This document shows positions 11,068 to 17,548 of a stretch of DNA of 64,000 nt, piece by piece. Within the stretch, counting starts at the first letter, position 1; every line of letters begins with the position of its first letter. Under the pieces are notes generated by a model. That model was not told where the DNA came from. It saw only the letters and a program-made list of their open reading frames with translations, and searched no databases. Source of the DNA: Promethearchaeota archaeon (GTDB lineage Archaea; Asgardarchaeota; Lokiarchaeia; Sigyniarchaeales; SOKP01); the NCBI GenBank assembly GCA_016840165.1, contig JAEOSU010000076.1, positions 86,719 to 150,718 of the forward strand, written 5' to 3'. The position numbers and the translations under genes are program-made.

Positions 11068-11478
11068 ATGAATTTTGAAGATGAGGAGGAAGAATTCGAT
11101 GAAGAATTCGATGAAGAATTTGATGAAGATCTGGACGAAGATTTGGATGAAGAGAGAGATTTTGAATTAAAAAAACCAACTCCAGAAGTTCTTGCAACTA
11201 AAACTCCAAAAGGTACCATTAGCTCGGAAGCAAAAAAGATTTCCGTATATCTAATGTCAACAATAGGGCCGGGGGAAAAGAAACAAAAATTATTAATATA
11301 TACTGGATATCAGATTAAGGATATCAAGGAAACAGTGGCTAATATATTTGGTTTAGACCCCTCTGATTTTCATTTATCTACAGGAGGAGTCACAATGGAG
11401 GAGGGATTAACGCTAAATGATTATAATGTTAATGATGGAGATGATATTTTGTTAATTCCGGCTAGCACTGCTGGCTAA
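11068..11478 (+). CDS. ubiquitin-like beta-grasp protein Ubl1, acidic N-terminal extension, ends ...STAG-stop
   Basis: The C-terminal ~80 aa align with Ubl2 (13316-13660); the last 19 residues DYNVNDGDDILLIPASTAG are identical. Terminal Gly is followed directly by TAA. GGTG SD upstream. Confidence 0.8.
   Translation: MNFEDEEEEFDEEFDEEFDEDLDEDLDEERDFELKKPTPEVLATKTPKGTISSEAKKISVYLMSTIGPGEKKQKLLIYTGYQIKDIKETVANIFGLDPSDFHLSTGGVTMEEGLTLNDYNVNDGDDILLIPASTAG
11089..11160 (+). repeat. six tandem 12-nt coding repeats (GAAGAnnTnGAn) encoding (EEFD)3(EDLD)2EERD
   Basis: Read directly: gaagaattcgat x2, gaagaatttgat, gaagatctggac, gaagatttggat, gaagagagagat. Confidence 0.85.
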
Positions 11479-11523
11479 ATTGTCAAAATATTTAATATTT
11501 AAAATCAATAAGATATTTTTAAT

Positions 11524-12306
11524 CTATTTTTTATTTCTTGGAATTAAAGCAATTTCATCATCATCATCAATATTATACTCCCTTATAAGGGAATTTTCAT
11601 GTAATAATATTCCGCCAGAGGAGAGTAAAAAATCATCGAGATTATATCCAAAAAATACTGCTATTCTTTCTTTAAGATCTCTAATGAAATCTGATGATTC
11701 GATTATTAAAATTTTAGTTTTCTCTCCTGGTTCAACTAAGGACCTAACATAAACTCGTATTCTGTCTTGCATCCCTATTTTATTTTTTGGGGGATAATAA
11801 ATAATCTTTTTATTATTCTTAGCTTCCAACATAGATTCAATTAGGACTTTCCTCTCTTCAGCATCATAATATAATAATTCTCTGAGGAAAAATATCTTAT
11901 CCATTTTAGATAGATCTAATATTTCTATCTTCTCTAATTCTTCTGGAATAAATAATGAAAAAATAAACTCATGAAGTTTTGGTATTTCTTCATATGAATC
12001 ATCTGAATCAGCATAATCATCAATTAGAGGCATTGCTTCGAAATAATCATTTAAAAAAGCACTAGAAATTCCTTTATGTGGTTTTCTATTCAAAGGAATC
12101 TTCTTCTTTAAAATTAAATTATCGGGTTCTTTTTTAGATTCTATGATTGTATAGAGAGTAACACTAGGTAAAACAGCAACACTACTTATAATTAGGATTG
12201 AATTTAGAAGGATATGATCTATATTAAAGAAAATAAAGAGAAGATAGATTAAAATAAAGAATATATAGAGAATGATTGTACCAAATAATAGATGCTTTAG
12301 TTTCAT
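11524..12306 (-). CDS. membrane protein (2 N-terminal TM helices) with C-terminal ubiquitin-like domain lacking a terminal Gly
   Basis: C-terminal RVYVRSLVEPGEKTKILIIESSDFIRDLKERIAVFFGYNLDDFLLSSGGILLHENSLIREYNIDDDDEIALIPRNKK aligns residue-for-residue with the Ubl1/Ubl2 beta-grasp region. Confidence 0.75.
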   Translation of the reverse strand: MKLKHLLFGTIILYIFFILIYLLFIFFNIDHILLNSILIISSVAVLPSVTLYTIIESKKEPDNLILKKKIPLNRKPHKGISSAFLNDYFEAMPLIDDYADSDDSYEEIPKLHEFIFSLFIPEELEKIEILDLSKMDKIFFLRELLYYDAEERKVLIESMLEAKNNKKIIYYPPKNKIGMQDRIRVYVRSLVEPGEKTKILIIESSDFIRDLKERIAVFFGYNLDDFLLSSGGILLHENSLIREYNIDDDDEIALIPRNKK

Positions 12307-12391
12307 GATTTTATTTTTAATACCTACTTCTAAATTTTAAATATAAATCTCTTAATATAAATTCCATTGGAATAAATTTGCAATTTCTCTT

Positions 12392-12865
12392 TTATTCCTC
12401 ATTGATTAATTTTCTAACCTCAAAATATTTGTCTTCATTTAAGCAAAATAATACTATTCTATTTTGTCTTCTAATGGTTATCAGTTGTAATTTTTGTAAA
12501 ATCTTAAAATACTTTTTTATAGAATTATAATTTCTTTTTAGCCCATTTGCAATTTCGGTGATTTTAAATTCTTTTAAAGAATTTTTCTGTATGAAACTTA
12601 TTATTTCTTTGACGATACTTTGTTTTAAATAGAAATGTAATTCATCAAACTCAGGATTTAAATCAAATTTGAAAAATACTCGTTGATTTTCAAATTTTTT
12701 AGATCTTACAAATTGAAATTTCTCTAAACAAGATAAATGCCATAATACTTGATTACTTCCAATGTTTATTGCTTTCATAATCTCATTAATATTTGATGGT
12801 GTTTGTTTAATTAAATTAAAGATTTCATTTCTTACTGGATGTTCTATGATGTTATTCTTCATCAA
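12392..12865 (-). CDS. winged-helix (ArsR-like) transcription regulator with two wH modules
   Basis: HPVRNEIFNLI..INEIMKAINIGSNQVLWHLSCLEKFQFV is ArsR/SmtB-like. A second wH-like segment is ITEIANGLKRNYNSIKKYFKILQKLQLI. Confidence 0.65.
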   Translation of the reverse strand: MMKNNIIEHPVRNEIFNLIKQTPSNINEIMKAINIGSNQVLWHLSCLEKFQFVRSKKFENQRVFFKFDLNPEFDELHFYLKQSIVKEIISFIQKNSLKEFKITEIANGLKRNYNSIKKYFKILQKLQLITIRRQNRIVLFCLNEDKYFEVRKLINEE

Positions 12866-12866
12866 T

Positions 12867-13067
12867 TTAGTCCCAGGAATAAGGATTTTTTTTTTTAATA
12901 AGCTTCTTTATGATTTTTTCGATGCTATTTTTATTTATATTTGGGTTTAACTTTACCCTATTACTAATGAATAAGACGATATCTTCAATTGAAAAGAATG
13001 GTTTCTTTTTTAGATATTCTTTAATTAAGTCAAAAACAATATCTTCGGCATAATTGGGGGATTTCAT
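12867..13067 (-). CDS. small hypothetical protein (possible wH fragment)
   Basis: 66-aa ORF directly upstream of the wHTH gene, in a different frame. Confidence 0.35.
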   Translation of the reverse strand: MKSPNYAEDIVFDLIKEYLKKKPFFSIEDIVLFISNRVKLNPNINKNSIEKIIKKLIKKKNPYSWD

Positions 13068-13315
13068 TAGTGTATACTTCTAATATGTTAGATGAAATGA
13101 ATTTATTAATGATTTCTTTTATCTAAAATGTTATCTTTCAGTTCATATTAATTACTAACCATTTATTCAATTTATAAGTATATTTTCTTAGATTAATAAT
13201 GGTATTTATGTCTTTATTCAAGAATTTTCAAAATCATTCCAATTGGTTTTATAATATCATTTTAGCATGTTCTTAGTAAGTTTAAAAATAAACTTTCAAA
13301 AAATAAAAAAAAGAA

Positions 13316-13660
13316 GTGAAAAAAATGAGTTTTGATAATGATTTTGATGAGGAATTGGAACCATTAAAGTCTAAAACGCCTACAAGTAAAACACCTTCAG
13401 CAGGAAAGAAACTGACTCTATATTTTATGTCAACTATCGGTCCTGGTGAAAAGAAAGAAAAGTTAACCGTAAATGATGCTAATCAAGTCAGTGATATTAA
13501 AGAAACCTTAGGAAATTTATACGGTCTTGACCCTGATGAATTTCATTTATCATCTGGTGGAGTTACAATGGATGAAAGTAATCAATTAAAAGATTATAAC
13601 GTAAATGATGGAGACGACATTCTTTTAATTCCTGCGAGTACGGCGGGTAGACTTATATAA
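13316..13660 (+). CDS. ubiquitin-like beta-grasp protein Ubl2, pro-form ending ...STAG-RLI
   Basis: Paralog of Ubl1. A three-residue extension follows the Ala-Gly. The ATG at 13325, preceded by GAAGTGA, is the likelier start. Confidence 0.85.
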   Translation: MKKMSFDNDFDEELEPLKSKTPTSKTPSAGKKLTLYFMSTIGPGEKKEKLTVNDANQVSDIKETLGNLYGLDPDEFHLSSGGVTMDESNQLKDYNVNDGDDILLIPASTAGRLI

Positions 13661-13727: not shown

Positions 13728-14960
13728 GTGATAGGATTGGAGAAAAATTCAGATTTTTTTGGTAAAGAACTGTCAGTGGAGGAACGAGACTTATATGACC
13801 GCCAATTTCGCCTTGAAGGTTGGTCACAAAAGGTAGTAAAAAATTCGAGAGTCCTAATAGCAGGTGTAGGAGGTTTAGGTTGTGAAACTGCTAAAAATTT
13901 AGCTATGTTAGGTGTGGGTCATATCGATCTTGTTGATTTAGATATAATTGAACATTCTAATTTAAACCGACAAATACTTTTTACTGGTGCTCAAATAGGA
14001 GAATCCAAAGCGATTGTAGCTGCTAGAAAATTGAGGGAAGTAAATCCAAATATAACTATAAAAGGGTATTCTACCTCTTTAGAACGATTAAATCCTGAAA
14101 TTTATCAAGCCGTTGATATTGTGGTTGGTGGTCTTGATTCGATGATTGCTCGTTTAAACTTAAATGCGCAGTGTATAAGATTTAGAAAACCTTTAGTTGA
14201 TGGGGGCGTATCTGGTTATCATGGGCATATCTATACCGTGTTTCCTTATAAAAATGCCTGCTATGAGTGTAACCCATTACCTATTGGCGAAAGTGATGAA
14301 ATGGCAGCTTGTACTGTAGTTGGAATTCCCCGGAAAAGAATTCACTGTGTTTTTAAAGGGGATATGGCTTTTAGAGAAAAATTTGATAGAGATCCAAATC
14401 CAAAAGATATGAATGATATAAAATATATTCAAAAAGCGGCAAATGAATTAGTAAATAAACATAATTTCTTACCCGAATACACTGAAGATGATATTGTAAA
14501 AATTATTGATAGACATGATCCAGGATTAATTACAGTTAATGCCGTTATTTCTGCTTTACAGTCTCATGAGACTATAAAGATTATTCATTGGAAAAAAGGG
14601 CATAAAGGATTAGGAGCGCCCATACAGGATTATGTTATCTTTAATGGTATTACCATGAAATTATATCATATTGAAAAAAAAAGAAACCCAGAATGTTCTC
14701 AATGTGGAAGAAATGCTCGACGTGTTATTATAAAAATGAAAGCACAGTCACCTTGCATGAATATTATAAAAATTTTAAATCATCATGGGTATAACTTAGA
14801 GGAAAATTTTGAACCCATTATTACACTATTGGATTTCAATGATATACAAGTTATTGATTTAGAAAAGAATGCTAGAGAAAATGATTTACGTAATTTAGAA
14901 TTTTTAATTGTAGCTGGGTTTGTTGGTGGAGAAATTTATGTAACACTAAAATTAAAATGA
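13728..14960 (+). CDS. ubiquitin-activating E1-like enzyme (ThiF/UBA family)
   Basis: GVGGLGCE nucleotide loop and NLNRQ. Two CxxC pairs (CYEC, CSQC). MAACTVVGIPRKRIHC resembles the eukaryotic UBA3-type catalytic-Cys segment (Cys codon 14310-14312). C-terminal ~70 aa is a possible ubiquitin-fold domain. The TTG at 13737 after AAGGTGAT may be the true start. Confidence 0.9.
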   Translation: MIGLEKNSDFFGKELSVEERDLYDRQFRLEGWSQKVVKNSRVLIAGVGGLGCETAKNLAMLGVGHIDLVDLDIIEHSNLNRQILFTGAQIGESKAIVAARKLREVNPNITIKGYSTSLERLNPEIYQAVDIVVGGLDSMIARLNLNAQCIRFRKPLVDGGVSGYHGHIYTVFPYKNACYECNPLPIGESDEMAACTVVGIPRKRIHCVFKGDMAFREKFDRDPNPKDMNDIKYIQKAANELVNKHNFLPEYTEDDIVKIIDRHDPGLITVNAVISALQSHETIKIIHWKKGHKGLGAPIQDYVIFNGITMKLYHIEKKRNPECSQCGRNARRVIIKMKAQSPCMNIIKILNHHGYNLEENFEPIITLLDFNDIQVIDLEKNARENDLRNLEFLIVAGFVGGEIYVTLKLK

Positions 14961-15046: not shown

Positions 15047-15574
15047 TTGAGTTTAAGAAGTAGTCGTATTTCTCGAGATTTTGCGGGTTTAAAAAAGATG
15101 CTTAAGAATGGAACCATGGTTCAATTAAAACCATTTAATCCAAAAAAAAAAAGTATTGATCATTTAGCTATTACTATCAGAGGTCCCAAAGGAACAGCTT
15201 ATGCAGGGGGTCTTTTTAAATTAGAAATGAAATTCCCTGCTCAATATCCTAAGCAGCCTCCATTTGTGAGACTCCATACACCAATTTGGCATCCAAATTT
15301 TTGGCCTAAACCAAGTGAATATAAAGGACAAAGAAATATCTGTTTAGCATTAGTTGATCCTTCTTTAGTTGGTAAAAAAGGAGGTTGGAGTCCTTCGAAA
15401 ACAGCAGTCACTATAGTGCAAGCAATAATTGCTATGTTAAATACACGCGGAAAATATGTTAATCCAACAGATGTATTTAATAAAAAAGCAGCAATCGAAA
15501 TGATAAAGGATCAAAAATTCTTCGAGAAAAAAGTTAAAAACCTAGTAAAGAAGTATGCAAAAGAAAAGTGGTGA
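15047..15574 (+). CDS. ubiquitin-conjugating E2 (UBC fold)
   Basis: HPNF...QRNICLAL gives an HPN motif and catalytic Cys (codon 15341-15343). The N-terminal helix SRISRDFAGLKKML is UBC-like. Confidence 0.87.
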   Translation: MSLRSSRISRDFAGLKKMLKNGTMVQLKPFNPKKKSIDHLAITIRGPKGTAYAGGLFKLEMKFPAQYPKQPPFVRLHTPIWHPNFWPKPSEYKGQRNICLALVDPSLVGKKGGWSPSKTAVTIVQAIIAMLNTRGKYVNPTDVFNKKAAIEMIKDQKFFEKKVKNLVKKYAKEKW

Positions 15575-16388
15575 AAATAATATGAAAAATGATGAAATTC
15601 CTGATGATCCAATTAGAGAAGCCATTAAACAAAAAATAAAAAACAAAATCAAAAAAGAATTACTTAAAGAAATATATTCGGAATTACAATTAGAAGAAGA
15701 AATTACAAACGAGATAACCACTGAAATAATTAGTGATCCTTTATTAGAGCATTCCGAGATCAATAAAGCTAATCTTGAACCGATTCCTTCAGAGATCGTA
15801 GAAACTTCTGCTAGTAATGGTAAATTTAAAGCACCTATAGCTATAAATGTAAAATCCATTCTAAAAATTGCCAGTCACGCATTAAAATATGCTCATTCAA
15901 AAATCCCAAGAGAAGAATGGGTTGAGGTTATTGGCTTACTTGCTGGAACATTTGATAAAATTCATAACGTTTTATATATTGAAGATGTTTATCCAATGGG
16001 ACATGGTAATGCTGTGTATGCGGAAATTAAAGATTATAAAAATTATGTAAGAGCTTTTAAAGATATCAAAAAAAGTAGATTGTTTATATGTGGCTGGTAT
16101 CACTCTCATCCATCCTATGGATGCTTTATGTCTAGAGAAGATTTAGGTACCCAATCGCGGTATCAAACATTATGGGATAAAGCAATAGCACTTGTAATTG
16201 ATCCTTATCAGATAAATGGAAAATCATTGGGTTTTGAAATTTATCGTGCGAATTTTAAAAAACGAGAGTGGTTTTCTGTACCTTTTGAGATTAATGGAAA
16301 TTTAGATGTGGGAATGTTACCTGAAATTTTGGATTTTATGAACCCAATTATAGAGGGGAAGGCTGCTTATTTAGAATATGATGAATAA
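15555..16388 (+). CDS. JAB1/MPN/Mov34 (JAMM) metalloisopeptidase, Rpn11-like, with ~95-aa N-terminal extension
   Basis: EVIGLLAG plus GWYHSHPSYGCFMSREDL give E...HxHx7Sx2D. An alternative start is the ATG at 15582, 8 nt after the E2 stop, with GGTGA as SD. Confidence 0.9.
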   Translation: MQKKSGENNMKNDEIPDDPIREAIKQKIKNKIKKELLKEIYSELQLEEEITNEITTEIISDPLLEHSEINKANLEPIPSEIVETSASNGKFKAPIAINVKSILKIASHALKYAHSKIPREEWVEVIGLLAGTFDKIHNVLYIEDVYPMGHGNAVYAEIKDYKNYVRAFKDIKKSRLFICGWYHSHPSYGCFMSREDLGTQSRYQTLWDKAIALVIDPYQINGKSLGFEIYRANFKKREWFSVPFEINGNLDVGMLPEILDFMNPIIEGKAAYLEYDE

Positions 16389-16408: not shown

Positions 16409-17548
16409 ATGGTAAAAAAGAAAAATTTGATAATCCTTCTTTTTGTCTTAATTGGTTTTGTCCATGGGTTGATCTCAATTTCATTAAATATTTTTCTAAC
16501 TTGGGTATTTATCGGTTTGTGGATATTTTTCATAATAAAAATTTTCGAAAACATAAAACAACATCGCGAATTTAATTCACCTTATAATACGGCATTTTTT
16601 GTTATTCTTCCTTTATTTATTGGGATCTTTTATTCTATGTGGGGCTACTATACGAATTTATTTGGTGAAAATCTCTTTATGAACTCCAATATCTATTTTA
16701 GTTTATGGAGCTTAATTTTTGGATTTCCATTTGTTTTATATGGATCTTATTCATTATATCGTTGCTTTAAAAAGTATAATGTGATCTATTTTGGGAGAAG
16801 AGCTGTAAAGGCTAAAGTGGTTGGATATCTACTATCATTCTCAATAATTTTTGGTATTATTCTTTATTGGATAATTTTTTACTCTATTATTGAGTTTTTT
16901 AATTATTTATTAATTCCTTTACATTTCTCTTTAGATTTAAATCTTTTAATCATTTTTATATTGACTATTCTAATTCTTATTTTATTTGGATTTTTAAATC
17001 CTCAAAGACGATTATCTCCTTTAACTCGAGAATATATAGCACAGCGTACTCGAAGAATTAATGCTCTCACAAGACCTAGTATTCAAAATCAGAGAGTAAA
17101 GACAACTAACCGATCAACTTCTCCCTCAACTAGAACAGTGACCCGATCAACTACTACTTCCTATAGATCCTCAAGGATCACTCCAAAATCTAAAAGCCAT
17201 GCGAGGAGAACAACAAGAACCACTGAAACTAAAAAGACAAAAACTAATCTAAAAATTCGAAATATAAATGCTTATAAGCCAAAAGCGGCATTTCTGACAG
17301 AAGAAGATTTCAAATGCATTTTCTGTTTTAATTTGCCAAAATTTCCCGAAGATAAAGGTAGAGGGATCATTTTATGCCCTAATTGTAGATATCCTTCCCA
17401 CGCAGATGAGTTTAAAGACTGGTTAAAAACTTCAAATTTATGTTCACGTTGTAGCGCACCCATTCCCTCTAGCTTTAGAAGAAATCCAAGAATTATTAGT
17501 ATAAAAAATTATATTTCTATCTATAAACAAATTTTAAAAAAAACATAA
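16409..17548 (+). CDS. polytopic membrane protein with S/T/R-rich linker and C-terminal RING-like zinc finger (candidate E3)
   Basis: About six hydrophobic helices in the first 200 aa. The linker is RSTSPSTRTVTRSTTTSYRSSR... The C-terminus is CIFC-x16-CPNC-x4-H-x13-CSRC. Confidence 0.7.
   Translation: MVKKKNLIILLFVLIGFVHGLISISLNIFLTWVFIGLWIFFIIKIFENIKQHREFNSPYNTAFFVILPLFIGIFYSMWGYYTNLFGENLFMNSNIYFSLWSLIFGFPFVLYGSYSLYRCFKKYNVIYFGRRAVKAKVVGYLLSFSIIFGIILYWIIFYSIIEFFNYLLIPLHFSLDLNLLIIFILTILILILFGFLNPQRRLSPLTREYIAQRTRRINALTRPSIQNQRVKTTNRSTSPSTRTVTRSTTTSYRSSRITPKSKSHARRTTRTTETKKTKTNLKIRNINAYKPKAAFLTEEDFKCIFCFNLPKFPEDKGRGIILCPNCRYPSHADEFKDWLKTSNLCSRCSAPIPSSFRRNPRIISIKNYISIYKQILKKT

What the first reader, a model, noticed from the sequence alone, without database searches (positions are those of the whole stretch)
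11068..13660. Two Ubl paralogs end in Ala-Gly, one already mature and one with a 3-residue pro-peptide
Both Ubls share an identical 19-residue C-terminus, DYNVNDGDDILLIPASTAG. Across the ~80-residue beta-grasp they are roughly two-thirds identical by eye. Ubl1 stops directly after the Gly (GGC TAA at 11473-11478). Ubl2 continues with Arg-Leu-Ile (GGT AGA CTT ATA TAA at 13646-13660). Canonical ubiquitin, NEDD8, SUMO and SAMPs end in Gly-Gly. An Ala-Gly tail is closer to the single-Gly tails of UFM1 and Atg8. One constitutively conjugatable form plus one form that needs processing, presumably by the operon JAMM protease, implies two differently regulated modifiers served by a single E1/E2.
Basis: seen in the sequence. 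Interest (0 to 1): 0.6.

Follow-up and report, generated by a model that had tools for sequence, protein, structure and literature searches.

The report
Asgard ubiquitin-like tags ending Ala-Gly
Two neighbouring genes of a Loki-type Asgard archaeon encode ubiquitin-like tags whose reactive end is always Ala-Gly rather than ubiquitin's Gly-Gly, but the extra three residues on one of them are an unstable by-product of stop-codon change, not a designed pro-peptide.

Summary
Ubl1 (11068-11478) ends ...LLIPASTAG-stop. Ubl2 (13325-13660) ends ...LLIPASTAG-RLI-stop. The last 19 mature residues are identical and the 82-residue core is 68% identical. Independent metagenome assemblies carry the same ends.

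Both proteins are ubiquitin-fold modifiers of a Promethearchaeota (Lokiarchaeia) locus. It is conserved in 51 species-level genomes in the order Ubl1 / membrane-anchored Ubl / wHTH / Ubl2-E1-E2-JAMM-membrane RING.

Ala-Gly is invariant across all family members examined, down to 40% identity, in contigs labelled Lokiarchaeia, Helarchaeota and Hodarchaeales. The E1, E2 and fold are of the canonical ubiquitin type, not UFM1- or Atg8-like.

The "mature versus pro-form" contrast is not conserved. In the 51 syntenic species:
- both tags end at Gly in 31;
- the window's pattern occurs in 9;
- both are extended in 8;
- the reverse pattern occurs in 3.

DNA alignment shows that RLI arose from a 1-nt deletion at the stop codon. 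Translation then runs into former 3'UTR.

Such caps recur, and head-to-tail poly-Ubl genes exist. This implies a protease that cuts after Ala-Gly. The operon's Rpn11-like JAMM is the likely one, but this is untested.

Verdict: a real, little-described variant of the known archaeal ubiquitin system. The differential-regulation reading is weak.

The parts
11068..11478 (+). Ubl1: 136-aa ubiquitin-like modifier. It has a long acidic disordered N-terminal extension and a beta-grasp core, and ends ...IPASTAG directly at TAA (11476-11478).
   Evidence: It belongs to a separate orthologue clade with a long N-extension.
11524..12306 (-). Membrane-anchored Ubl-domain protein of 260 aa. It has N-terminal hydrophobic helices and a C-terminal beta-grasp ending ...ALIPRNKK, with no terminal Gly, so it is not conjugatable.
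   Evidence: PF00240, 31.7 bits. It is present at the same place in the syntenic loci.
12392..13067 (-). Winged-helix regulator gene. In this window it is split into two ORFs (12867-13067 and 12392-12865) at a poly-T run near 12884-12896.
   Evidence: The relative L003 has a single 223-aa ORF. Other assemblies have one T fewer at about 12886-12889.
13325..13660 (+). Ubl2: ubiquitin-like modifier that heads the operon, 111 aa from the ATG at 13325 (the ORF is open from the GTG at 13316). The mature end is ...IPASTAG (Gly codon 13646-13648).
13649..13660 (+). Three-codon C-terminal cap AGA CTT ATA (Arg-Leu-Ile) plus TAA. It derives from 3'UTR sequence through a 1-nt deletion at the ancestral stop.
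   Evidence: relatives read GGN TAA ACT TAT ATA (no cap), GGT AAA CTT ATA TAA (KLI) or GGT AGA CTT ATA TAA (RLI).
13728..14960 (+). E1-like activating enzyme (ThiF fold). A Cys in AACTVVG aligns with the Cys of SAE2 'PGCTIRNTP', the catalytic position by recollection.
   Evidence: PF00899, 1.2e-59; best PDB relatives are UBA2, UBA1 and UBA3.
15047..15574 (+). E2 (UBC fold) with an HPN...C active-site motif.
   Evidence: PF00179, 9.8e-26; sequence (IWHPNFW...NICLAL).
15555..16388 (+). JAMM/MPN+ metalloprotease, Rpn11-like, with motif HSHPSYGCFMSRED. It is the candidate enzyme for processing and deconjugation.
   Evidence: PF01398; the best PDB relative is the Caldiarchaeum Rpn11-like protein 6fjv/6fnn/6fno, E = 4.5e-15.
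16409..17548 (+). Polytopic membrane protein with a C-terminal Cys/His RING-like finger. It is the probable E3.
   Evidence: sequence. The same gene follows the JAMM gene in L003, L087, L089 and L091. It was not analysed further here.

Best explanation
Ubl1 and Ubl2 are two old paralogues of one ubiquitin-type modifier family of Asgard archaea. Each has a disordered acidic N-terminal arm, a ubiquitin beta-grasp and a flexible tail ...(L/I)IPxS(T/V/I)-Ala-Gly.

The terminal Gly is the residue that the operon's canonical-type E1 adenylates and thioesterifies. The tag then passes to the UBC-type E2 and, with the membrane RING protein, onto targets. All of this is inferred from homology.

Ala-Gly in place of Gly-Gly is a fixed trait of the whole family, not a peculiarity of this genome.

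The residues after the Gly (RLI here) are not a conserved pro-peptide. They are short caps that appear and vanish through point mutations and 1-nt indels at the stop codon in AT-rich DNA. They are tolerated because the cell has a hydrolase that cuts after Ala-Gly. The most likely hydrolase is the co-encoded Rpn11-like JAMM protease, as was shown experimentally for the Gly-Gly pro-ubiquitin of Caldiarchaeum.

So in this organism Ubl2 needs one trimming step and Ubl1 does not. This difference is a recent accident of the lineage with at most a minor regulatory effect. Real differences between the paralogues more probably lie in their separate promoters, their N-terminal arms and their surface residues.
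For: Family and fold:
- Pfam ubiquitin hits.
- A profile of 26 members finds ubiquitin first in the PDB.
- The AlphaFold2 beta-grasp model matches ubiquitin and Caldiarchaeum ubiquitin, TM-score normalised to the target 0.77-0.89.

Invariance of Ala-Gly:
- All 240 closest homologues end ...AG plus 0-8 residues.
- In a 26-sequence alignment down to 40% identity, A110 and G111 are among 11 invariant columns.
- Representatives at 50% clustering all carry P-x-S/T-x-A-G.

Distribution:
- The same Ubl-E1-E2-JAMM-membrane RING operon occurs in contigs labelled Helarchaeota, Hodarchaeales and an unlabelled lineage. The Hodarchaeales contig ends after the JAMM gene.

Old paralogy:
- The two groups form two clean clades, split support 1.0, with N-arm medians of 51 and 26 residues.
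- Synteny holds in 51 species-level genomes.

Labile caps:
- Counts in the 51 syntenic species are 31 / 9 / 8 / 3 for none-none / none-ext / ext-ext / ext-none.
- There are at least 7 different caps on Ubl2-type genes and at least 9 on Ubl1-type genes.
- The codon-level origin of KLI/RLI is a 1-nt deletion. The Ubl1 cap of L007 arose by TAA to AAA read-through.

Need for cleavage after Ala-Gly:
- Head-to-tail poly-Ubl ORFs have 3 and 2 diverged units (50-59% identical in P0241). Each unit ends STAG or SQAG, and the ORFs carry a 2-residue end cap, VL or IY.

Protease:
- The JAMM motif is intact here and in three distant operons.
- Its closest solved relative is the Caldiarchaeum Rpn11-like enzyme. 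That enzyme removes the 9-residue pro-peptide of Caldiarchaeum ubiquitin, and uncleaved pro-ubiquitin is refractory to E1 (PMC5654768).
Against: - No biochemical datum exists for any member. Activation of an Ala-Gly end by this E1 and cleavage after Ala-Gly by this JAMM are both inferences.
- In the redundant metagenome clusters, caps are much commoner on Ubl2-type genes (86/121) than on Ubl1-type genes (20/121). A weak functional bias therefore cannot be excluded, although most of it comes from a few heavily sampled lineages (YF, RLI).
- All caps on operon-linked Ubl2 genes are only 1-4 residues long. Random read-through in 31% G+C sequence would average about 12 codons. This shows selection on the cap (against long ones), so the caps are not strictly neutral.
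- Whether another protease or another E1 exists in the genome could not be checked, because genome search was shut.
Confidence: 0.75

Rival explanations
1. One reading: the cap on Ubl2 is a functional pro-peptide. The cell would keep one ready-to-use modifier (Ubl1) and one whose supply is gated by JAMM processing (Ubl2), giving two differently regulated tags on one E1/E2.
For: In redundant metagenome clusters 71% of Ubl2-type proteins but only 17% of Ubl1-type proteins carry a cap (Fisher p = 4e-18). In Hodarchaeales operons one tandem Ubl ends at Gly and the other carries a cap: HSTAG* with VSTAGLL*, and HSTAG* with VSTAGFDF*. Caps are kept short.
Against: At one genome per species the association vanishes: 11/51 against 17/51, Fisher p = 0.27, paired p = 0.15. 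In 31 of 51 syntenic species both are uncapped. The window's nearest relatives cap both genes. Cap sequences are not conserved and are readable as relatives' 3'UTR. The cluster-level statistic counts related sequences many times over.
Confidence: 0.12
2. The Ala-Gly end marks a distinct pathway. The Ala would be a specificity determinant co-evolved with this E1 and this JAMM. It would keep the membrane-RING system insulated from a second, Gly-Gly ubiquitin system (ESCRT-linked) in the same cells, or from cysteine-protease deubiquitinases that need Gly-Gly.
For: Ala is absolutely invariant where neighbouring tail positions vary. A Helarchaeia ESCRT-linked pro-ubiquitin with Gly-Gly plus SPKN and its own E1/E2/RING has been reconstituted (bioRxiv 10.1101/2023.07.25.550441), while a contig labelled Helarchaeota carries an Ala-Gly-type operon.
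Against: Co-occurrence of both systems in one genome was not shown here. No E1 or JAMM residue that reads the Ala was identified. Invariance could equally reflect a simple structural need of the tail.
Confidence: 0.2
3. The stop after Gly in Ubl1, or the RLI extension in Ubl2, is a sequencing or assembly artefact.
For: The window does contain a probable homopolymer error 450 nt upstream, in the wHTH gene.
Against: Independent assemblies from different studies are identical across both ends. RLI or KLI tails occur in 12 separate 90%-identity clusters and in 4 species-level genomes.
Confidence: 0.01
4. The proteins are sulphur carriers of the MoaD/ThiS/Urm1 type, or non-conjugated ubiquitin-like domains, rather than protein modifiers.
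For: One source names the poly-Ubl P0241 'molybdopterin converting factor small subunit'. ThiS appears as a faint Pfam hit.
Against: The genes are strictly linked to an E2, a JAMM protease and a RING-like protein. The E1 is closer to UBA1/2/3 than to MoeB/ThiF and has the Cys-bearing insert. No MoaE/ThiG-type partner lies in the locus.
Confidence: 0.03

Closest known systems
Caldiarchaeum subterraneum ubiquitin system (ubiquitin, E1-like, E2-like, small RING finger protein, Rpn11-like JAMM; PMC5654768; PDB 6fj7, 6fnn, 6fno)
   Same: Operon of Ubl, E1, E2, RING and JAMM. The fold is the ubiquitin beta-grasp. The JAMM is the closest solved relative of the window's JAMM. The modifier can be encoded with a C-terminal extension that must be removed before E1 can act.
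   Different: The Caldiarchaeum tag ends Gly-Gly with a 9-residue pro-peptide; here the end is invariantly Ala-Gly with 0-8 labile residues. The tags here carry a 25-50 residue disordered acidic N-terminal arm. There are two free paralogues plus a membrane-anchored Ubl. The RING sits on a polytopic membrane protein instead of a small soluble one.
Eukaryotic ubiquitin precursors (polyubiquitin genes with a variable extra C-terminal residue; NEDD8 and SUMO pro-forms)
   Same: Short, poorly conserved caps after the reactive Gly. Family members P0241 and P0242 are head-to-tail repeats ending in a 2-residue cap. The E1 and E2 are of the canonical type.
   Different: The eukaryotic tags end Gly-Gly and, by established knowledge, are processed mainly by cysteine-protease deubiquitinases. 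Polyubiquitin units are identical and have no linkers, whereas here the units are 50-59% identical and each brings its own N-terminal arm.
UFM1 and Atg8/LC3 (tails with a single Gly and a non-Gly penultimate residue, made as pro-forms)
   Same: Only the tail: a non-Gly residue before the reactive Gly, and a short extension in some copies.
   Different: UFM1 uses UBA5 and UFC1; Atg8 uses Atg7 and Atg3 (established knowledge). The window's E1 scores 137 bits to UBA2 but 65 bits to UBA5, its E2 is Pfam UQ_con, and the Ubl profile finds ubiquitin, ISG15 and ubiquilin rather than UFM1 or Atg8.
Helarchaeia ESCRT-linked pro-ubiquitin (Gly-Gly plus Ser-Pro-Lys-Asn) with E1, E2 and RING E3 (bioRxiv 10.1101/2023.07.25.550441)
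   Same: An Asgard ubiquitin-type cascade encoded as a pro-form.
   Different: It has a Gly-Gly end and is linked to ESCRT genes. The Ala-Gly family sits in a separate operon with a JAMM and a membrane RING, and no ESCRT gene lies in the locus.
Archaeal SAMPs and Urm1, and bacterial Bil-type Ubl-E1-E2-JAMM operons
   Same: Beta-grasp tags activated by ThiF-type E1s. A JAMM protease exposes or removes the tag (PMC4443979 and PMC11354881, as listed).
   Different: SAMPs end Gly-Gly and need no E2 or E3. Bil tags have two beta-grasp domains and belong to antiviral operons. Neither has the IPxSTAG tail or the acidic N-arm.

Membership tests
Ubiquitin-type conjugatable modifier (Ub/NEDD8/SUMO-like, canonical E1-E2 cascade) | Ubiquitin beta-grasp fold | tested here: met
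   PF00240 hits. AlphaFold2 model with pLDDT above 90 over residues 32-106. Foldseek finds ubiquitin and Caldiarchaeum ubiquitin, TM-score normalised to the target 0.77-0.89.
Ubiquitin-type conjugatable modifier (Ub/NEDD8/SUMO-like, canonical E1-E2 cascade) | Flexible C-terminal tail ending in Gly that is free or can be exposed | tested here: met
   Ubl1 ends at Gly. Ubl2 has Gly plus 3 residues. Gly is invariant across the family and is the last residue in 136 of 242 members.
Ubiquitin-type conjugatable modifier (Ub/NEDD8/SUMO-like, canonical E1-E2 cascade) | Gly-Gly as the last two residues | tested here: not met
   Ala-Gly in every member examined.
Ubiquitin-type conjugatable modifier (Ub/NEDD8/SUMO-like, canonical E1-E2 cascade) | Dedicated E1 with adenylation domain and catalytic Cys; E2 with HPN...Cys | tested here: met
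   ThiF at 1.2e-59 and UQ_con at 9.8e-26. An E1 Cys aligns with the Cys of SAE2 'PGCTIRNTP'; that this is the catalytic position is my recollection. The HPN...C motif is visible.
Ubiquitin-type conjugatable modifier (Ub/NEDD8/SUMO-like, canonical E1-E2 cascade) | Covalent attachment to target proteins through the terminal Gly | not testable with these tools
   Needs biochemistry or proteomics.
Pro-form modifier processed by a co-encoded JAMM (Caldiarchaeum type) | Catalytically intact MPN+ protease in the same operon | tested here: met
   HSHPSYGCFMSRED fits H-x-H-x7-S-x2-D. PF01398. The best PDB relative is the Caldiarchaeum Rpn11-like protein.
Pro-form modifier processed by a co-encoded JAMM (Caldiarchaeum type) | A conserved pro-peptide, or at least a conserved pro-form state, of the modifier | tested here: not met
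   The cap is present in 17 of 51 operon-linked orthologues, with at least 7 unrelated sequences. It arises from stop-codon mutations.
Pro-form modifier processed by a co-encoded JAMM (Caldiarchaeum type) | Cleavage exactly after the reactive Gly by that protease | not testable with these tools
   Inferred only, from PMC5654768 and from the existence of poly-Ubl ORFs.
UFM1 / Atg8-type modifiers | Non-canonical E1 (UBA5 or Atg7) and a dedicated E2 (UFC1 or Atg3) | tested here: not met
   The E1 scores 137 bits to UBA2, 131 to UBA1 and 126 to UBA3, against 65 to UBA5. The E2 is UQ_con.
Polyubiquitin-like tandem precursor | Several modifier units joined head to tail in one ORF | tested here: not met
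   This is not the case for the window's two genes, which are separate and 1.8 kb apart. It is met by family members P0241 (3 units) and P0242 (2 units) from other samples.

The most novel reading that the evidence does not exclude
The invariant Ala before the reactive Gly is a specificity code. It would make this membrane-RING tagging system orthogonal to a Gly-Gly ubiquitin system in the same Asgard cells, much as residue 72 separates ubiquitin from NEDD8. It would also make the tag resistant to Gly-Gly-specific cysteine deubiquitinases. Its E1 and Rpn11-like JAMM would have co-evolved to read Ala-Gly. The family already shows eukaryote-style precursor genetics: diverged poly-Ubl genes with end caps, and Ubl domains fused to the C-termini of HerA-like and CDC48_N-VWA proteins.
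Probability: 0.2. Interest if true: 0.65.

Novelty: new variant of a known kind. Interest (0 to 1): 0.4.

Why it matters
Asgard ubiquitin-like operons are a main line of evidence for how eukaryotic ubiquitin signalling arose. Published experiments that I could find deal with Gly-Gly ubiquitins of Caldiarchaeum, Heimdall/Odin and Helarchaeia. No paper in the searched library pairs Asgard ubiquitin with an Ala-Gly end.

A large family (847 and 902 hits in the two searches) with an invariant Ala-Gly end has several consequences:
- Standard assumptions fail. The di-Gly remnant antibodies and the Gly-Gly mass tag used in proteomics would miss every conjugate.
- The tryptic remnant would be 19 residues for Ubl2 and 49 residues for Ubl1.
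- It gives a simple test of how strict canonical E1s and Rpn11-type proteases are about the penultimate residue.

That saves effort on a regulatory model that comparative data do not support.

Tried and rejected
- The genome search and the fetch from genomes were shut. I could not ask whether this genome also holds a Gly-Gly ubiquitin, a second E1/E2 or cysteine deubiquitinases.
The single protein was used instead, which biases the sample to Promethearchaeota.
The two sides were laid separately.

Searches that led nowhere:
- Literature searches for an Ala-Gly Asgard ubiquitin found nothing specific. I could not find which 'Lokiarchaeota ubiquitin' was used in the two-hybrid work of PMC9192718.
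- RNA runs gave only short metatranscriptome contigs of 88-96% identical relatives. This is weak evidence that the family is transcribed and says nothing about this organism.

Ideas rejected:
- UFM1/Atg8 kinship.
- Gene conversion as the cause of the identical 19 residues.
- Assembly error.
- A sulphur-carrier role (locus content).

Caution on labels: the NCBI names 'Hermodarchaeota', 'Odinarchaeota' and 'Hodarchaeota' on several 80-87% identical loci were not trusted as evidence of breadth. Breadth rests on the distant operons, whose lineage names are also only source labels.


Full report
**Observation**

Ubl1 (11068-11478, +) is a 136-aa ORF ending GCT GGC TAA, i.e. ...LLIPASTAG-stop. The Ubl2 ORF ends GCG GGT AGA CTT ATA TAA at 13643-13660, i.e. 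...LLIPASTAG-RLI-stop.

The 19 residues before the Gly end are identical. The 82-residue core is 56/82 = 68% identical. Eleven of the 19 identical terminal codons differ synonymously, so the identity is kept by selection on the protein and not by recent gene conversion. BLASTP gives 57% identity overall, E = 6e-46.

Logan contigs of runs from different studies are identical across the Ubl1 stop (X1, X3, X9) and across the Ubl2 tail (X3, X9). A related strain (X5) differs only outside the tail codons. An assembly error is therefore excluded.

Homologues start MSFD..., so the real Ubl2 start is most likely the ATG at 13325.

**What the genes are**

Both proteins hit Pfam ubiquitin. The AlphaFold2 model of Ubl2 (88-sequence alignment) has three parts:
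- a disordered N-terminal arm, residues 1-30;
- a confident beta-grasp, residues 32-106, pLDDT above 90;
- a flexible tail.

Foldseek places the model with ubiquitin and with Caldiarchaeum ubiquitin (6fno, 6fj7, 6fnn), TM-score normalised to the target 0.77-0.89. A sequence profile of 26 family members finds ubiquitin first in the PDB, then ISG15 and ubiquilins.

Downstream of Ubl2 lie four genes:
- An E1, ThiF 1.2e-59. Its best solved relatives are UBA2, UBA1 and UBA3, well ahead of MoeB and UBA5. A Cys aligns with the Cys of SAE2 'PGCTIRNTP', which I recall as the catalytic position.
- A UBC-fold E2 with HPN...C.
- A JAMM protease with an intact H-x-H-x7-S-x2-D motif. Its closest solved relative is the Caldiarchaeum Rpn11-like enzyme.
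- A polytopic membrane protein with a RING-like finger.

Between the two Ubl genes, on the other strand, lie two more genes:
- A membrane-anchored Ubl-domain protein that ends ...IPRNKK and so cannot be conjugated.
- A winged-helix regulator.

**Organism and family**

The closest homologues are from Promethearchaeota (Lokiarchaeia) MAGs. The two searches found 847 relatives (Ubl2) and 902 relatives (Ubl1).

A tree of 242 cores splits cleanly into two clades, split support 1.0:
- a Ubl1-type clade, median N-arm 51 residues;
- a Ubl2-type clade, median N-arm 26 residues.

In a scan of one genome per species, 80 loci were fetched. In 51 of them the order Ubl1 / membrane Ubl / wHTH / Ubl2-E1 is the same as in the window (also L003). 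Some genomes hold further stand-alone Ubl2-like copies.

**The Ala-Gly end**

All 240 closest homologues have ...P-x-S-x-Ala-Gly followed by 0-8 residues. So do the 50%-identity representatives.

In an alignment reaching 40% identity, Ala110 and Gly111 are two of only eleven invariant columns, while the three tail positions before the Ala vary.

Distant members head the same operon type in other lineages:
- a contig labelled Helarchaeota (L089, tail STAG-GF);
- contigs labelled Hodarchaeales or Hodarchaeota (L086: HSTAG* and VSTAGLL*; L091: HSTAG* and VSTAGFDF*);
- an unlabelled 736-kb contig (L087: VSTAGARSF* and VSTAGS*).

The lineage names are the sources' own labels.

Ala-Gly is thus the rule for this operon type across the Asgard contigs sampled here.

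The tail resembles UFM1 or Atg8 only in having a non-Gly penultimate residue. The enzymes and the fold are of the canonical ubiquitin type.

**The extension**

In the redundant clusters, 100 of 120 Ubl1-type sequences but only 35 of 120 Ubl2-type sequences end at Gly. At one genome per species the picture changes:
- operon-linked Ubl2-type genes: 37 uncapped, 20 capped;
- Ubl1-type genes placed upstream of the membrane Ubl: 32 uncapped, 8 capped.

In the 51 syntenic loci the four combinations are:
- both uncapped, 31;
- the window's state (Ubl1 uncapped, Ubl2 capped), 9;
- both capped, 8;
- the reverse, 3.

The statistics are Fisher p = 0.27 and paired exact p = 0.15. The window's nearest relatives cap both genes: L006 has IVSIL and RLI, L007 has KINRNI and RLI.

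The caps are unrelated strings rich in residues with AT-rich codons (I, K, N, Y, F, L).

Codon alignment shows how they arise. For Ubl2:
- uncapped relatives read GGN TAA ACT TAT ATA;
- KLI relatives read GGT AAA CTT ATA TAA, which is the same letters minus one base at the Gly wobble or stop;
- the window reads GGT AGA CTT ATA TAA, one further A-to-G change.

For Ubl1, the window reads GGC TAA ATT... and L007 reads GGT AAA ATT AAT CGA AAT ATT TAA, a stop-to-Lys change with read-through.

The 'pro-peptide' is therefore former 3'UTR. All caps on operon-linked genes are 1-4 residues long, whereas random read-through at this base composition would average about 12 codons. Long tails seem to be selected against while short ones are tolerated.

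**How it most likely works**

Shown here:
- fold;
- family;
- invariant Ala-Gly;
- labile caps and their mutational origin;
- conserved linkage to E1, E2, JAMM and the membrane RING;
- intact catalytic motifs.

Inferred:
- The E1 adenylates and thioesterifies the terminal Gly.
- Capped forms cannot be activated until trimmed. This was shown for Caldiarchaeum pro-ubiquitin, which is refractory to E1 until its Rpn11-like protease removes nine residues (PMC5654768).
- The operon JAMM does the trimming.

Two comparative facts argue that a hydrolase cutting after Ala-Gly exists wherever the family does:
- Caps have been gained many times on the operon's lead modifier without loss of the gene.
- Some members are head-to-tail poly-Ubl ORFs. 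P0241 has three units that are 50-59% identical. P0242 has two units. Each unit ends STAG or SQAG, and the ORFs carry a two-residue end cap. This recalls eukaryotic polyubiquitin genes.

In this organism Ubl2 needs one extra step and Ubl1 does not. I judge this a recent, near-neutral difference. Lasting functional differences between the paralogues more probably lie in their separate transcription (Ubl1 stands alone, Ubl2 leads the operon), their N-terminal arms and their surfaces.

**Comparison with what is known**

The closest characterised system is the Caldiarchaeum operon. The differences here are the Ala-Gly end, the N-terminal arm, the paralogue pair plus a membrane Ubl, and a membrane-embedded RING.

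Published Asgard work that I could read concerns Gly-Gly ubiquitins of Heimdall/Odin and Helarchaeia. PMC9192718 notes that in Lokiarchaeota the ubiquitin and ESCRT genes form two separate regions. No paper in the library pairs Asgard ubiquitin with Ala-Gly. I therefore class this as a new variant of a known kind.

Earlier notes of this scan on other genomes reached the same two points, an invariant Ala-Gly end and caps arising from stop-codon slippage. I reached them here from my own analyses, and the notes are not independent evidence.

**Limits**

It remains open whether a Gly-Gly ubiquitin, a second E1/E2 or other deubiquitinases exist in this genome.
- No biochemical evidence exists for any family member.
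- RNA evidence is limited to short metatranscriptome contigs of relatives.

Noticed in passing
window 12392-13067 (-), poly-T run about 12884-12896: The winged-helix regulator between the Ubl genes is split into two ORFs (66 and 157 aa) at a homopolymer. The relative L003 has one 223-aa ORF. Three other assemblies (X3, X5, X9) have one T fewer at 12886-12889. The split is probably a homopolymer-length error or a strain variant, not a real pseudogene.
   Followed up: partly
window 11524-12306 (-): This is a membrane-anchored protein whose C-terminal beta-grasp keeps the family's LIP motif but ends ...IPRNKK without Ala-Gly. It is conserved at the same place in the syntenic species, with tails such as IPSRKK or IPSRKEKN. 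It is a non-conjugatable Ubl, perhaps a membrane docking partner of the RING protein.
   Followed up: partly
window 11068-11230 and 13325-13410; alignments A1 and A2: Both tags carry a disordered acidic N-terminal arm (FDxxFDEEL-type repeats) followed by a conserved (L/V/I)-K-S-K-T-P motif about 15 residues before the beta-grasp. K20, T21 and P22 are nearly invariant or invariant in A2. This could be a chain-forming lysine, like the one in SUMO's N-terminal arm, or a Thr-Pro phosphorylation site. Neither idea was tested.
   Followed up: no
P0241 (L001/L002, 1.2-kb contigs) and P0242: These are poly-Ubl genes. Three or two diverged Ala-Gly Ubl units, each with its own acidic arm, are fused head to tail in one ORF and end with a 2-residue cap (VL, IY). 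The nearest genome relative is a MAG labelled Hodarchaeota, in which the units are separate tandem genes (L091).
   Followed up: partly
P0259, P0272, P0276, P0245: Ala-Gly Ubl domains form the extreme C-terminus of large proteins: a HerA/DUF87-like ATPase (564 aa, ends SSRAG*) and CDC48_N + VWA proteins (565 and 570 aa, ending ASTAG-T and ASHAG-KHKPF). Whole proteins might be ligated through their Ubl end, or the Ubl may serve as a handle.
   Followed up: partly
L053, L054, L056, L060, L067, L069, L071, L072, L074, L076, L082, L084: Several Promethearchaeota genomes carry an extra stand-alone Ubl2-like gene (...NGDDILLIPASTAG*, no cap) that is not next to an E1. Others have stand-alone copies with IF, CF or IY caps (L028, L037, L044, L061).
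   Followed up: no
L018 (DATKTW010000176.1) and P0149: A contig carrying this Asgard Ubl-E1 operon is deposited under the name 'Candidatus Nanopelagicaceae bacterium'. This is probably a mis-binned contig.
   Followed up: no
L086 7001-7890; L087 6547-7330; L091 1768-2714: In the distant operons (labelled Hodarchaeales/Hodarchaeota, plus one unlabelled lineage) the two free Ubl genes lie in direct tandem just before the E1. One has the KSKTP motif and the other lacks it. No membrane Ubl or wHTH gene lies between them.
   Followed up: partly
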